Positions 42,001 to 45,000 of a stretch of 64,000 nt of DNA are shown piece by piece. Origin of the DNA: Escherichia coli (GTDB taxonomy: Bacteria > Pseudomonadota > Gammaproteobacteria > Enterobacterales > Enterobacteriaceae); NCBI RefSeq assembly GCF_030013595.1, contig NZ_CP122768.1. One strand, given 5' to 3'. The first letter of the stretch is position 1, and every line of letters begins with the position of its first letter. A program made the position numbers.

Positions 42001-45000
42001 AATAATTCAGGCCACAACTCAGTGAGGCGGTTAACGCGCCTGCGGTTTTTGCGCTGGCGTTTGGTCATATGCCGCCACGGTGTCGCCCCTGTGGGCTTCT
42101 GCTGCGCTTTCTGGTTACCGGGCATCACTTTATGCGCCGATGTGGTTTTATCCTGCTCCTGCGCCGCCTGCGTCGTTTTCTGCGGCGTGCCGTAAATGCC
42201 TTTCGGTTTTCTGTTAATGGTCAGCTTAGTCATGCTTTGCCCCATCGTTTTTACTGGTTGCTACGTTGCCCAACGGCACTGACACAACATTCTGTTTTCA
42301 TTTTTAACATTCCTGATTTTTTAATTCCTCACCTGCTGCACAGTGAAAATTTATGAAGTTAATAACAATATGATTTTAAATGTATTTTTAAGTACTCACT
42401 TTTTAATCCTTATATATACGCAAAAGTGAGGTAAATAGTTAAGTTTTAGTTAATATCTTGCATGGTGTGTTTTTTAACCTACCTGTTATTTTTATTACCT
42501 CATTTCTATTAACTCACCATTCCTCACTTTTGTTCCTCACTTTTTATTATTCTTGTTCTGCTCCTCAGTCGTTTTCTTTATTGTTGTAATCTGTTGTTTT
42601 GCAATGTGTTTTTAACTCCTCACTTTTTGACCTATATACAGGTGAGAAAGTGAGGAGTGGCGTTGATTTTTTGTTAAATTACCCGCCATCCTCACTTTTG
42701 CTCCTCACTTTTTACAGTGGGCGCACATAATCACCGTCAATAGCGATTACGCCGTCGCTTTCCAGCTTGTACAGCCAGCGCCGGAAGTTTTTCATTTCAT
42801 ACCCCAGCTTTTTCATATCATCGCGGAGAAGGGCGATAGTGCACGCCTCCCCGTGTGCTGTTCGCGTTCTGATGCACTGCCATAGCGCAGCGTGATTTTC
42901 CGTCTTGTTCCCGGCCTCCTCGATGCGTTCCAGTTCAACAGGTGGGCGCGGCTTATCCACAACCACCAGCGACGTGATTAACTCCCCGTCAGTGTCGGTA
43001 AAAAGCTCCACCACGCGTAAATCATATGCAGCCTCTTTCAGTTCCTCCGCGTCCTTCATTTTGGTGCAGGAGATAACCAGGGCTTCACTGTCCGCACCTT
43101 CACGGCGAATACGGTATTCAGCGTCCAGAGATGCACGAAATGCACTGGAACCACGCGCCCCTTTTGTTTCATCCTTGCCGGAATGGTGAACCACCAGTAC
43201 CGTGGCCCCTGTGCGTCGTTTCAGTTCGTCACATCCACGGATAAACGCCCCCATATCCCGCGCGTCATTTTCATCATTACCGCCAAAGCAACGCGCCAGC
43301 GTATCCAGAATAATCATGCGTACCGGTTTACCCGTTTCCCGTTCAACCTGACGGGAAGCGATGACCATTTCATCAACATCAAGCGGGACCGCCGGAAAAA
43401 TCGGGCGGTTTACCAGGTACAGATTTTTCACCCGTTCATCATTAACGATTTCCCATGCTTTGATACGACGAGGAACACCGATCCCGCCCTCACCAACGAC
43501 ATACATAACCGCACCATGTACAACCCTGCGACCTCCCCAGTGGCGACCAGTGGCAACATGACACGCCCAGGAACACGCGAGGAACGATTTATAGGAACCG
43601 CTCGCGCCGTATGTGCTGCACAACGAATTAGCCGGAATCACGCCCTTAACGACATAATCAAGCTGTGTGTCGTATCCTGCAGATCCAATACTCATTGGTA
43701 GCGTGGTTTTTCGCTGGCTGTATTGCTCGTCAGTAAGTATTTCCCCGCGCTCTGCCTGTTCGCGGATCCGTTGCAGGTAGTCGTGCCAGTTCTCCAGCTT
43801 CTGGCTGTGCATTCCCTCAGGGTAATAATTCGCATCCCGTACACCTGCCGCCGCCAGTTTTTGCCCGATGGCATTAATATTTGACGGCTTGATGTGGCCT
43901 GCCTTGTACAGCCGGACACAATAGCGACCATCGTCGATAATTTTCAGGTCTGCCAGTTCGTCAAGCTGGCTGTCTCCCAGCCATACAGGCGGAACATTGT
44001 CGCCAGCAAGTCGCCCGTCCTGTTCCTGCCATTGTTTCGCGTGCGCCCAGGCATCACTACCCGCAAAAATAATGACTTCGGTCATTTTGTCGTGTGGCTG
44101 TTTTTTTAAGTTCGGTGCCAGTTTCATTTTGTGCCCCTGAATGCGTTAATCATGTTTTTCATTTTCTGAATATTTGCCCGTGCCTTTGCGTTGCTGGTGG
44201 GCTGTTTGCGTGGTGTGGCCTGTATCAGTGAAAAATCACGCCGGAACTGATAAACAGGCATCACGCAGTCGTAGCTGTACCCATCACGGCGGTAAGTAAC
44301 GCACCGTCCGGCAATACTTTTAATCGTTACCGTGCCGCCGTAGTTATCCCGGAAAATATCGCCGGGGCGGATTTCAGGCCGAGGGAGACCACTGGCAGTA
44401 AAGCCAGAATTTTTCTTTTTCATGGTTTTATTTTCCTGTCAGCAGTTCCGGTTTTATTTCCGCACGAATACAGAGTTCAGAAAAAAATTCAGGAGAACCA
44501 ACAATCTCATTACTTTTCAGTCGGCATTGTGATTTCACTTTCCCTTTATCCAGGTAAACCAGTATGCGTCCGGTGAAATCATCTGGCACACTCAGGGTAA
44601 TTGTCATTGTTGCTTGCTGATTATCCATGATTCACCCCCTGAATAACCTGATAACCGCAACTGGTCAGCAATTCGATAAATTCCGGCAGTGTTCCGAAAC
44701 AGCAATCATCTCGCAGCCGTTCTCGGGATACTTCAACGCCGTTTTCGTAGTGACTCACCATGCGTCCGGTAAAATGCAGATCATCATCGTGATGGCTCGT
44801 TAACGGCTTAATCAGTCGCGCACGTTCTGCCAGCTCCAGCAATGCTTCAACGCTTCCGGCAATTGCACCATCCGGCAGGTGATAATTACTTGCCACGCGT
44901 CCATTCTCCACGTTAACCAGTAGCTGCCCGGTGAATTTCTCATCAAACTGAATGCTGTTAAGGTCAGAAATTGACAGGTTAATCATGGCGTACCTCCTGG

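What the first reader, a model, noticed from the sequence alone, without database searches (positions are those of the whole stretch)
42422..42714. Iteron array (TCCTCACTTTT, at least 7 copies) immediately 3' of the element's replication gene: putative satellite origin
Five direct and two inverted copies of an 11-bp motif are packed into about 290 bp of AT-rich DNA directly downstream of the P-loop replication protein gene (42712..44127, minus strand). Satellite elements such as SaPIs place their origin in this position, bound by the cognate Rep. This would define the element's autonomous replicon, and the iteron sequence determines Rep specificity.
Basis: seen in the sequence. Interest (0 to 1): 0.65.

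Follow-up and report, generated by a model that had tools for sequence, protein, structure and literature searches.

The report
Replication origin of a phage satellite
The repeat cluster is real and is most likely the replication origin of a small E. coli phage-satellite island, bound by the helicase encoded just upstream; this kind of origin has already been described, so it is a well-supported but fairly ordinary find.

Summary
TCCTCACTTTT occurs 8 times (at most 1 mismatch) in 42393-42712 and once elsewhere in the 64 kb. About 1 match is expected by chance.

The array starts at the stop codon of a 471-aa gene (42712-44127, minus strand). That gene encodes an RSF1010-RepA-like RecA-fold helicase with a predicted C-terminal winged helix. 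It lies in a 10.5-kb island with the gene order of E. coli phage-inducible chromosomal islands (PICIs).

- In 64 related loci from many Enterobacterales genera, the iteron positions relative to the rep stop codon are conserved.
- The iteron core changes in concert within each element. It tracks one residue of the predicted recognition helix without exception in 69 loci (Asn with GTGAG, His or Lys with GTGGG, Ser with GTGCG).
- The winged helix and array move together as a cassette between helicase backbones.

Published work (Fillol-Salom 2018) already places Gram-negative PICI origins immediately 3' of rep. It describes two iteron sets flanking AT-rich DNA and tested this functionally for EcCICFT073. 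The same Rep type occurs in EcCIO42 and EcCIRM13514.

Verdict: Rep-bound satellite origin, a new member of a known kind. Origin firing itself is inferred, not shown. The distal 265 bp (42246-42510) has no assigned role.

The parts
42712..44127 (-). rep: 471-aa initiator-helicase. It has an N-terminal domain (residues 1-135), a RecA-fold helicase core (about 150-390; Walker A GASGSYKS 174-181) and a C-terminal winged helix (401-471).
   Evidence: ORF. Pfam AAA_25 covers residues 152-320, E 6.6e-44. The AF2 model has pLDDT 85.6. The top fold hits are the RSF1010 RepA hexameric helicase, TMt 0.70-0.74. RefSeq names it 'helicase RepA family protein'.
42715..42927 (-). Coding region of the C-terminal winged-helix domain (residues 401-471). 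The recognition helix is M445-S457. The proposed specificity residue Asn447 is encoded by codon 42787-42789.
   Evidence: The model shows the topology H410-424, H431-440, H445-457, strand 461-464, strand 467-470, with local pLDDT 89-96. Fold hits are winged-helix DNA-binding domains: Fur, LexA, IclR, MCM-WH and ORC/Cdc6-WH, probability 0.95-0.99. Column N447 has 1.30 bits of mutual information with iteron base 4, which is the full entropy.
42511..42714 (.). Canonical origin core of about 204 bp, shared in layout by all RepA-type relatives. This is the unit that is inherited together with rep.
   Evidence: Iteron positions relative to the rep stop are conserved in 64 loci. The window shows the canonical pattern at 7+, 20+, 61-, 69-, 92+, 175+, 188+ and 198+. 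In several E. coli genomes with 90-97% identical rep, homology ends at window 42513-42515 (query_from 264-266).
42689..42712 (+). Tandem iteron pair D (two TCCTCACTTTT copies, 13-bp spacing), abutting the rep stop codon.
   Evidence: family D2. The same two copies follow the stop codon in nearly all relatives.
42617..42656 (.). Inverted iteron pair C flanking CTATATACAG. A further degenerate core lies at 42642-42646.
   Evidence: I3: 22-nt arms, 86% complementary. As single-stranded DNA it folds at -14 kcal/mol, z = -5.1. An inverted pair around a TATATA/TGTATA element is conserved across genera.
42545..42616 (.). A/T-rich spacer (about 65-73% AT) between the two iteron sets of the core. It is the candidate unwinding region in the canonical layout.
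   Evidence: The equivalent iteron-free gap at positions 97-145 after the stop codon is seen in relatives.
42511..42544 (+). Distal direct iteron set B: two exact copies at 42521 and 42534, plus a degenerate copy with its CTCAC core at 42513.
   Evidence: It corresponds to the copies at positions 175, 188 and 198 in relatives.
42246..42510 (.). Distal extension found only in the sub-family with a ProQ/FinO gene downstream. It holds inverted pair A (42393-42432, around TATATATA), an extra CCTCAC core (42327-42332) and the least stable duplex of the region (42347-42391). Its role is unassigned.
   Evidence: It is shared with L016, L097, L001 and L015, but the iteron cores of pair A are degenerate in L097.

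Best explanation
The array is the replication origin (ori) of a 10.5-kb PICI-type phage satellite integrated in E. coli. The adjacent 471-aa Rep is an initiator-helicase. Its C-terminal winged helix is proposed to read the 9-11-bp iterons (AAAGTGAGGA on the rep strand). Copies bound to the direct repeats and to the inverted pair would concentrate Rep on both sides of a TATATA element and an A/T-rich spacer. The RecA-fold (RSF1010-RepA-like) helicase rings would then load themselves there without DnaA or a loader, and host enzymes would carry out DNA synthesis once the island is induced by a helper phage. Shown here: the repeats, their position, the protein folds, the conserved layout, and Rep-iteron covariation. 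Inferred: binding, melting, self-loading, and which A/T-rich stretch opens.
For: 1. The motif is enriched about 8-fold over the whole-window chance expectation and is confined to 320 bp abutting the rep stop codon.
2. The island has the same gene order as EcCICFT073: int, AlpA-like HTH, YlcI, Icd-like, DUF4222, rep, ori, PerC. It is bounded by 26-nt direct repeats.
3. The 3'-of-rep region of EcCICFT073 is a published, functionally tested ori with the same logic but different iterons, GGTAGAYA (PMC6092414; sequence).
4. EcCIO42 and EcCIRM13514, from the same paper, carry this RepA-type Rep and AAAGTGAGG-type iterons.
5. 64 loci from Xenorhabdus, Photorhabdus, Serratia, Erwinia, Pectobacterium, Kosakonia, Morganella, Citrobacter and other genera keep the iteron positions and orientations relative to the stop codon, while the intervening sequence diverges.
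6. Iterons evolve in concert within each element. Base 4 of the GTGNG core is predicted without exception by the third residue of the predicted recognition helix: N with A 25/25, H with G 10/10, K with G 27/27, S with C 5/5, plus two more loci. That column is the only one with full mutual information.
7. Three E. coli pairs with 99% identical helicase cores differ in N/H and A/G together.
8. In cq9 and PapRG-04-4 the array stays attached to just the C-terminal 136 aa of Rep, while a primase-type pri-rep with its own GGTAGA iterons sits upstream.
9. The C-terminus is predicted to be a winged helix, as in SaPI Reps, which bind their iterons (PMC9371898).
10. There is no DnaA box or GATC site, which fits a self-loading initiator.
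11. A 17-kb circular Klebsiella record deposited as a plasmid has this Rep and the canonical array as its only replication functions.
Against: No experiment exists for this element or, in the papers I could read, for any RepA-type PICI origin. The functional test was done on EcCICFT073, whose Rep has a different helicase (D5-like). The A/T-rich spacer of the canonical core is only moderately unstable. The least stable DNA lies in the distal extension, so the melting site is uncertain. The same array persists next to a truncated rep in cq9-type islands, so the presence of an array does not prove activity. Rep has no recognisable primase domain, so priming is unexplained. Covariation counts are inflated by shared ancestry. 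The number of independent switches is small: at least three backbone pairs within E. coli, plus the differences between genera.
Confidence: 0.85

Rival explanations
1. The repeats are Rep-binding sites, but their main role is regulatory: copy-number control or handcuffing, or Rep-dependent control of the downstream ProQ/FinO-PerC-morphogenesis operon. Replication would then start elsewhere or depend on the helper phage.
For: The covariation shows only cognate recognition, not initiation. The window's intergenic region is 469 bp, against about 204 bp in most relatives. Its extra inverted pair A lies 150 bp upstream of the ProQ/FinO start codon.
Against: The array is 3' of rep, not at its promoter. 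No sigma-70-like promoter was found in 42150-42800. The canonical 204-bp layout precedes unrelated downstream genes (a hypothetical gene plus SSB, terS, or ProQ/FinO), so it tracks rep and not the downstream operon. The equivalent region of EcCICFT073 is needed for plasmid maintenance (PMC6092414).
Confidence: 0.07
2. The array is an inactive relic of an origin, or belongs to a decaying island that no longer replicates.
For: Identical or near-identical arrays sit next to truncated rep pseudogenes in cq9 and PapRG-04-4. The island is small (10.5 kb). Its phrog_6216-like gene appears split into two ORFs.
Against: Rep in the window is full length, with all family-invariant residues, Walker A and Walker B. 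All canonical iteron positions are occupied by the cognate GTGAG core. Integrase and att repeats are intact.
Confidence: 0.05
3. The repeats are sites for another protein, such as a small terminase (pac/cos site), the AlpA-like regulator, PerC or a host factor. Alternatively they encode a small RNA or peptide.
For: Repeat arrays also mark packaging sites. A ProQ/FinO-family RNA chaperone gene lies next door. PGAP annotates a 50-aa ORF inside the array in UMNF18.
Against: The repeats covary with a residue of Rep's own winged helix and stay linked to the Rep C-terminus through recombination. A separate TTGACACTTTTT array next to the terS-like gene is a better packaging-site candidate. Rfam gives only sub-threshold miRNA-hairpin hits caused by the palindrome. 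No conserved ORF exists.
Confidence: 0.03

Closest known systems
Origins of the E. coli PICIs EcCIO42 and EcCIRM13514 (Fillol-Salom et al. 2018, ISME J, PMC6092414)
   Same: The Rep family is the same: 'helicase RepA family protein', 85% nucleotide and 88% protein identity. The GTGAGG iteron core and the Asn recognition residue are the same. The layout after the stop codon is the same 204 bp. The flanking DUF4222 and Icd-like genes are the same.
   Different: The window's intergenic region is 469 bp, with a 265-bp distal extension carrying an extra inverted pair. It is followed by ProQ/FinO rather than a hypothetical gene plus SSB. I could not see the paper's Fig. 2a, so I cannot say which iteron sequences it lists.
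EcCICFT073 pri-rep-ori, the functionally tested Gram-negative PICI replicon (PMC6092414)
   Same: The island gene order is the same. The origin lies immediately 3' of rep, with direct and inverted short iterons around A/T-rich DNA. The N-terminal 131 aa of the two Reps are 62% identical.
   Different: The rest of the CFT073 protein is a D5_N/DUF5906/Pox_D5 (SF3-type) primase-helicase, not a RecA-fold RepA-type helicase. Its iterons are GGTAGAYA, not CCTCACTTT.
SaPI Rep/ori (Staphylococcus aureus pathogenicity islands; PMC9371898 and references therein)
   Same: The origin lies immediately downstream of rep. Six to twelve short iterons lie on both sides of an A/T-rich region, some in opposite orientation. 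The initiator is also the helicase and reads iterons through a C-terminal winged helix. Self-loading occurs without a loader.
   Different: SaPI Reps are AAA+ (SF3/MCM-like) helicases with no sequence relation to this Rep. The Rep here has a RecA-fold, DnaB/RSF1010-RepA-like core. The host phylum also differs.
IncQ plasmid RSF1010 replication system (RepA helicase, RepB' primase, RepC iteron binder)
   Same: The best structural match of the helicase core is RSF1010 RepA. Replication is iteron-dependent and DnaA-independent (my own knowledge of IncQ).
   Different: In RSF1010, iteron binding (RepC), helicase (RepA) and primase (RepB') are separate proteins, the iterons are 20 bp, and ssi priming sites exist. 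Here the winged helix and helicase are fused, the iterons are 9-11 bp, and no RepB'/RepC homologs or ssi sites were identified.
Classical iteron plasmids (pPS10, pSC101, F, R6K, RK2; review PMC4980987)
   Same: A plasmid-encoded, winged-helix-containing Rep binds repeated sites next to an A/T-rich unwinding element.
   Different: Those origins use 17-22-bp direct iterons, DnaA boxes and host DnaB loaded by DnaC. Their Reps have no helicase domain. No DnaA box is present here.

Membership tests
PICI/SaPI-type satellite origin | The origin lies immediately 3' of the replication initiator gene | tested here: met
   The last iteron overlaps the rep stop codon at 42712. The same holds in 64 relatives. 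The feature is defined in PMC6092414 and PMC9371898.
PICI/SaPI-type satellite origin | Two sets of short iterons flank an A/T-rich region, with copies in opposite orientation | tested here: met
   The proximal set is 42617-42712 and the distal set is 42511-42544. They flank the 65-73% A+T spacer 42545-42616. Inverted copies lie at 42646 and 42422.
PICI/SaPI-type satellite origin | The cognate Rep recognises the iterons through a C-terminal winged-helix domain | tested here: inconclusive
   A winged-helix fold is predicted with pLDDT 90. Recognition-helix residue 447 covaries perfectly with iteron base 4 in 69 loci. Physical binding was not and cannot be tested here.
PICI/SaPI-type satellite origin | The rep-ori segment drives Rep-dependent autonomous replication | not testable with these tools
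   This is shown only for EcCICFT073, which has a different helicase type (PMC6092414). Indirect support: a 17-kb circular Klebsiella record has this Rep and array as its only replication functions.
Gram-negative PICI (host element) | Integrase, AlpA-type regulator, unidirectional operon with rep, size about 10-15 kb, att repeats, PICI accessory genes such as PerC | tested here: met
   int at 47125-48366, an AlpA-like HTH at 46420-46626, Icd-like and DUF4222 genes, rep and PerC are all on the minus strand. The 26-nt direct repeats at 37904 and 48432 are 10.5 kb apart. Gene order matches EcCICFT073. Helper-phage induction was not tested.
Classical iteron-plasmid origin (pPS10/RK2/F type) | DnaA box(es), 17-22-bp direct iterons and a Rep without helicase activity | tested here: not met
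   No match to TTATNCACA with up to 1 mismatch. The iteron unit is 9-11 bp with 13-bp spacing. Rep carries an AAA_25 helicase core.
IncQ (RSF1010) replicon | Separate RepA helicase, RepB' primase and RepC iteron-binding proteins with 20-bp iterons | tested here: not met
   Only the helicase fold is shared. It is fused to the winged helix. No RepB'/RepC-like genes appear among the island's ORFs.

The most novel reading that the evidence does not exclude
One residue at the start of the winged-helix recognition helix (Asn447 here) may set base 4 of the iteron core: Asn with A, His or Lys with G, Ser with C. This would create at least three mutually orthogonal Rep/ori specificity classes among RepA-type satellites across Enterobacterales. 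The winged helix and ori would be exchanged as a cassette between helicase backbones. These Reps would also be self-loading initiator-helicases built on a RecA-fold (SF4, RSF1010-RepA-like) motor rather than the AAA+ motor of SaPI Reps, that is, a convergent solution. I found no description of either point in the papers I could search.
Probability: 0.55. Interest if true: 0.5.

Novelty: new member of a known kind. Interest (0 to 1): 0.35.

Why it matters
The result delimits the autonomous replicon of this island: rep plus about 204 bp, possibly up to 469 bp. That is the piece needed to build or track the satellite, and to predict which co-resident islands could cross-activate or compete for Rep.

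The comparative data add a concrete and cheaply testable specificity rule. One amino acid pairs with one base, and natural near-isogenic pairs such as the window element and L006 or L007 are available. This could explain how many related satellites coexist in one E. coli genome (up to 6 rep-related places per genome) without origin cross-talk. It could also supply orthogonal small replicons for engineering.

It does not change the current picture of how PICIs replicate.

Tried and rejected
- **Promoter or terminator reading:** the consensus scan of 42150-42800 found no sigma-70-like site and one weak terminator-like site inside the ProQ/FinO gene.
- **Host-initiator reading:** there is no DnaA box (up to 1 mismatch), no GATC and no Fis consensus match, and only two 1-mismatch IHF-like matches.
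- **LexA operator** (the CTGTATAT half-site in inverted pair C): the second CAG half is absent, and the element varies (CGTGTATA, GCATATATA) in relatives. I dropped this reading.
- **Non-coding RNA:** Rfam at E <= 1 gives only eukaryotic miRNA-hairpin models far below their gathering scores, which reflects the palindrome.
- **Coding sequence:** there is no ORF of 40 aa or more on the minus strand, and only two 43-aa TTG ORFs on the plus strand. The PGAP 50-aa ORF in UMNF18 is not conserved.
- **tRNA-linked integration:** there is no tRNA in 36-50 kb.
- **Sequence-only family searches for Rep:** these were weak. NCBIfam gave only RadA at E 8e-5, and the PDB sequence search gave only RSF1010 RepA at E 0.005. 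Fold comparison was needed.
- **Published iteron sequences:** I looked in the supplements of PMC6092414 and they are not there. Fig. 2a is not held.
- **Further literature:** searches for work on RepA-type PICI origins or their specificity found nothing beyond PMC6092414 and the SaPI and PLE papers.
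Full report
**1. Observation**

The motif TCCTCACTTTT, allowing one mismatch, occurs nine times in the 64-kb window. Eight of those copies lie in 42393-42712. Shuffled sequence gives 1.04 +/- 1.02 matches, and none of 100 shuffles reaches 9.

- Exact + strand copies start at 42521, 42534, 42617, 42689 and 42702.
- Inverted one-mismatch copies lie at 42422-42432 and 42646-42656.
- A further + strand one-mismatch copy lies at 42393-42403.
- Degenerate CTCAC cores lie at 42513, 42642 (minus strand) and 42328.

The copies form four units:

- Inverted pair A, 42393-42432, around TATATATA.
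- Tandem pair B, 42521-42544.
- Inverted pair C, 42617-42656, around CTATATACAG.
- Tandem pair D, 42689-42712.

GC content falls to 0.28-0.36 here, against 0.5-0.55 in the flanking genes. Pair D overlaps by one base the TAA stop of the 471-aa minus-strand ORF 42712-44127.

**2. The host element**

The window is E. coli DNA. The rep region (42250-44430) is 100% identical to strain ETEC6335. The array lies in a 10.5-kb island bounded by 26-nt direct repeats at 37904-37929 and 48432-48457.

On the minus strand the island carries, in order:

- a tyrosine integrase (47125-48366)
- an AlpA/excisionase-type HTH (46420-46626)
- Icd-like small genes
- a DUF4222 gene (44124-44423)
- rep
- the array
- a ProQ/FinO-family gene (41703-42245)
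- a PerC-family regulator (41419-41706)
- DUF2213/prohead-protease-like genes
- a terS/excisionase-like HTH gene (39004-39531)

A YlcI/YnfO-family gene lies on the plus strand (about 45544-45849).

This is the gene order of EcCICFT073, the reference Gram-negative phage-inducible chromosomal island.

**3. The Rep protein**

- Pfam finds AAA_25 over residues 152-320, E 6.6e-44.
- An AlphaFold model built from 61 homologs has mean pLDDT 85.6. Its best solved-structure matches are the hexameric replicative helicase RepA of RSF1010, TMt 0.70-0.74, followed by RecA/Rad51, KaiC and T7 gp4/Twinkle.
- The last 70 residues form helix 410-424, helix 431-440, helix 445-457 and a beta hairpin (461-464, 467-470). 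Modelled alone this domain has pLDDT 90. Its matches are winged-helix DNA-binding domains: Fur, LexA, IclR, and the MCM and ORC/Cdc6 winged helices, probability 0.95-0.99, TM 0.6-0.75.
- The N-terminal 131 residues are 62% identical to the N-terminus of the EcCICFT073 Pri-Rep. The remainder of that protein is an unrelated D5_N/DUF5906/Pox_D5 primase-helicase.

Rep is therefore modular: a shared N-terminal domain, a RecA-fold helicase, and a winged helix.

**4. Conserved origin layout**

I collected 13 RepA-type loci from E. coli and 79 from other species. I read the DNA after each stop codon.

In 64 loci with at least four copies of the locus's own core, the positions and orientations are the same:

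- two or three direct copies at about +7, +19 and +29
- inverted copies at about 47-69
- a direct copy at about 76-92
- an iteron-free, A/T-rich gap
- two to five direct copies at about 137-198

The inverted pair always brackets a TATATA/TGTATA-like element, while the other spacer sequence diverges between genera.

The window shows exactly this pattern: 7+, 20+, 61-, 69-, 92+, 175+, 188+ and 198+. This corresponds to window 42511-42714. In several E. coli genomes with 90-97% identical rep, homology to the window stops at 42513-42515, which is the edge of this 204-bp unit.

**5. Rep-iteron covariation**

The core differs between elements but is uniform within each: GTGAG(G) here and in EcCIO42 and EcCIRM13514, and GTGGG, GTGAGT, GTGGGC or GTGCGG elsewhere.

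The base at core position 4 is predicted without exception by the residue that follows the invariant Lys446, which is the third residue of the predicted recognition helix:

| Residue | Core | Loci |
|---|---|---|
| Asn | GTGAG | 25/25 |
| His | GTGGG | 10/10 |
| Lys | GTGGG | 27/27 |
| Ser | GTGCG | 5/5 |

Two further loci agree.

Among 58 distinct C-terminal sequences, this column carries 1.30 bits of mutual information with the base. That is the full entropy, and the column needs only four residue states. No other column reaches this value.

Asn pairing with adenine, and His or Lys pairing with guanine, are the common direct-readout preferences. This point is from my own knowledge, not tested here.

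Shared ancestry inflates the counts. However, three E. coli pairs with 99% identical helicase cores differ in Asn/His and A/G together: window/L006, L004/L007 and L010/L011. The window's winged helix is 94% identical to that of L007, yet the two have different iterons.

**6. Cassette behaviour**

In strains cq9 and PapRG-04-4, a primase-type pri-rep is followed by its own GGTAGA-type iterons. Directly after these come a rep pseudogene reduced to the C-terminal 136 residues and the CCTCACTTT array; the array is 100% identical to the window's in cq9 and about 80% identical in PapRG-04-4. Each Rep type thus keeps its own iteron type, and the array stays linked to the winged-helix end of rep. A 17-kb circular Klebsiella record deposited as a plasmid is a capsid-encoding island. 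Its only replication functions are a Ser-type Rep and the canonical GTGCGG array.

**7. What is already known**

Fillol-Salom et al. 2018 (PMC6092414) state four relevant points:

- In Gram-negative PICIs the region immediately 3' of the initiator gene is the origin.
- The EcCICFT073 rep-ori segment supports plasmid maintenance only when both rep and ori are intact.
- E. coli PICIs have four Pri-Rep alleles, including those of EcCIO42 and EcCIRM13514.

I found that the Reps of EcCIO42 and EcCIRM13514 belong to the same RepA family as the one here.

For SaPIs, Reps are self-loading helicases whose C-terminal winged helix binds 5-6-nt iterons placed just downstream of rep, on both sides of an A/T-rich region (PMC9371898).

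The window's array is therefore a further member of a described kind of origin.

**8. Most likely mechanism**

*Inferred from the data here:* winged helices of Rep bind the direct and inverted iterons.

*Inferred by analogy:* the inverted pair around TATATA and the flanking direct copies place Rep oligomers in opposite orientation. The DNA opens in the TATATA or A/T-rich stretch. The RecA-fold rings load without DnaA or DnaC, which fits the absence of a DnaA box and of GATC sites. Host primase and polymerase then take over. Inverted pair C can also extrude as an 18-bp hairpin (-14 kcal/mol, z = -5.1).

*Open points:*

- No primase domain is recognisable in Rep.
- The thermodynamically weakest DNA (42347-42391, among the least stable 40-mers of the whole window) lies in the distal extension, not in the canonical spacer.

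**9. The distal 265 bp (42246-42510)**

This segment exists only in the sub-family with ProQ/FinO downstream: L016, L097, and the cq9-type islands L001 and L015. It carries inverted pair A and one more CCTCAC core. In L097, however, the cores of pair A are degenerate (CCTCATATT and AAAGTGAAT), while the central GCGTATATATAGGGG is kept. The segment may be an auxiliary origin part or the control region of the downstream operon. I could not decide between these. No sigma-70-like promoter was found.

**10. Rivals**

- A purely regulatory Rep operator is unlikely. The 204-bp layout follows rep, not the downstream genes, which differ between islands.
- A dead relic is possible in principle, as cq9 shows. 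Here, however, rep is intact, with all invariant residues, and all canonical sites carry the cognate core.
- Sites for another protein, an RNA or a peptide are not supported. A separate TTGACACTTTTT array next to the terS-like gene is the better packaging-site candidate.

**11. Verdict**

It is a new member of a known kind of origin. The incremental value is a precise origin core, a cross-genus layout, and a one-residue/one-base specificity rule that is easy to test.

Noticed in passing
window 37904-37929 and 48432-48457: These 26-nt direct repeats (96% identical) lie 10.5 kb apart and bracket the island, so they are probably attL/attR. The island sits at the 3' end of a 415-aa pyridine-nucleotide-disulfide oxidoreductase ORF (36615-37862), between an AraC-type gene and a 200-aa ORF (49059-49661) that looks like a DoxX-family membrane protein (my reading of the sequence, not tested). 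No tRNA is nearby.
   Followed up: partly
window 38770-39003: A second repeat array, TTGACACTTTTT(CGCG), has 3-5 copies directly 3' of the 175-aa HTH/terS-like gene (39004-39531, minus strand) at the far end of the island. It may be a packaging (pac/cos-like) site or a regulator site.
   Followed up: no
L001 (E. coli cq9) 7463-8186; L015 (PapRG-04-4) 2963-3686: Two origin cassettes lie in tandem. A primase-type pri-rep with GGTAGA-type iterons is followed by a rep pseudogene reduced to the winged-helix end (136 aa) plus the CCTCACTTT array (identical to the window's in cq9, about 80% identical in PapRG-04-4). This is a natural recombinant showing how replication modules are exchanged.
   Followed up: partly
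window 43735-44127 (Rep residues 1-131): The N-terminal domain of this RepA-type Rep is 62% identical to the N-terminus of the unrelated D5-type Pri-Rep of EcCICFT073. Its DNA also matches DUF927 and DUF5906 primase genes. It is therefore a shared module of unknown role placed in front of different helicases.
   Followed up: partly
window 44979-46415 (minus strand): This 478-aa ORF has odd composition, overlaps the plus-strand YlcI/YnfO-family gene (about 45544-45849) and several small annotated genes, and is probably not a gene.
   Followed up: no
window 39702-41013: The 217-aa DUF2213 protein and the 197-aa protein match consecutive parts (115-315 and 405-544) of one 545-residue PHROG family (phrog_6216). 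This may be a split or rearranged morphogenesis gene. Relatives such as UMNF18 have a larger module here.
   Followed up: no
L098 (Klebsiella pneumoniae CP018459.1, 16,971 bp, circular): This record is deposited as a plasmid, but it is a capsid-forming PICI-like island with integrase, capsid, terminase, Rep and the canonical GTGCGG iteron origin. It is probably an excised or episomal satellite.
   Followed up: partly
L016 (E. coli TUM1881) 2517-2930: The array mixes core variants (CTGAGG, GTGGGG, GTGAGT) next to an Asn-type Rep with a divergent C-terminal end. It may be a recombinant or drifting origin.
   Followed up: no
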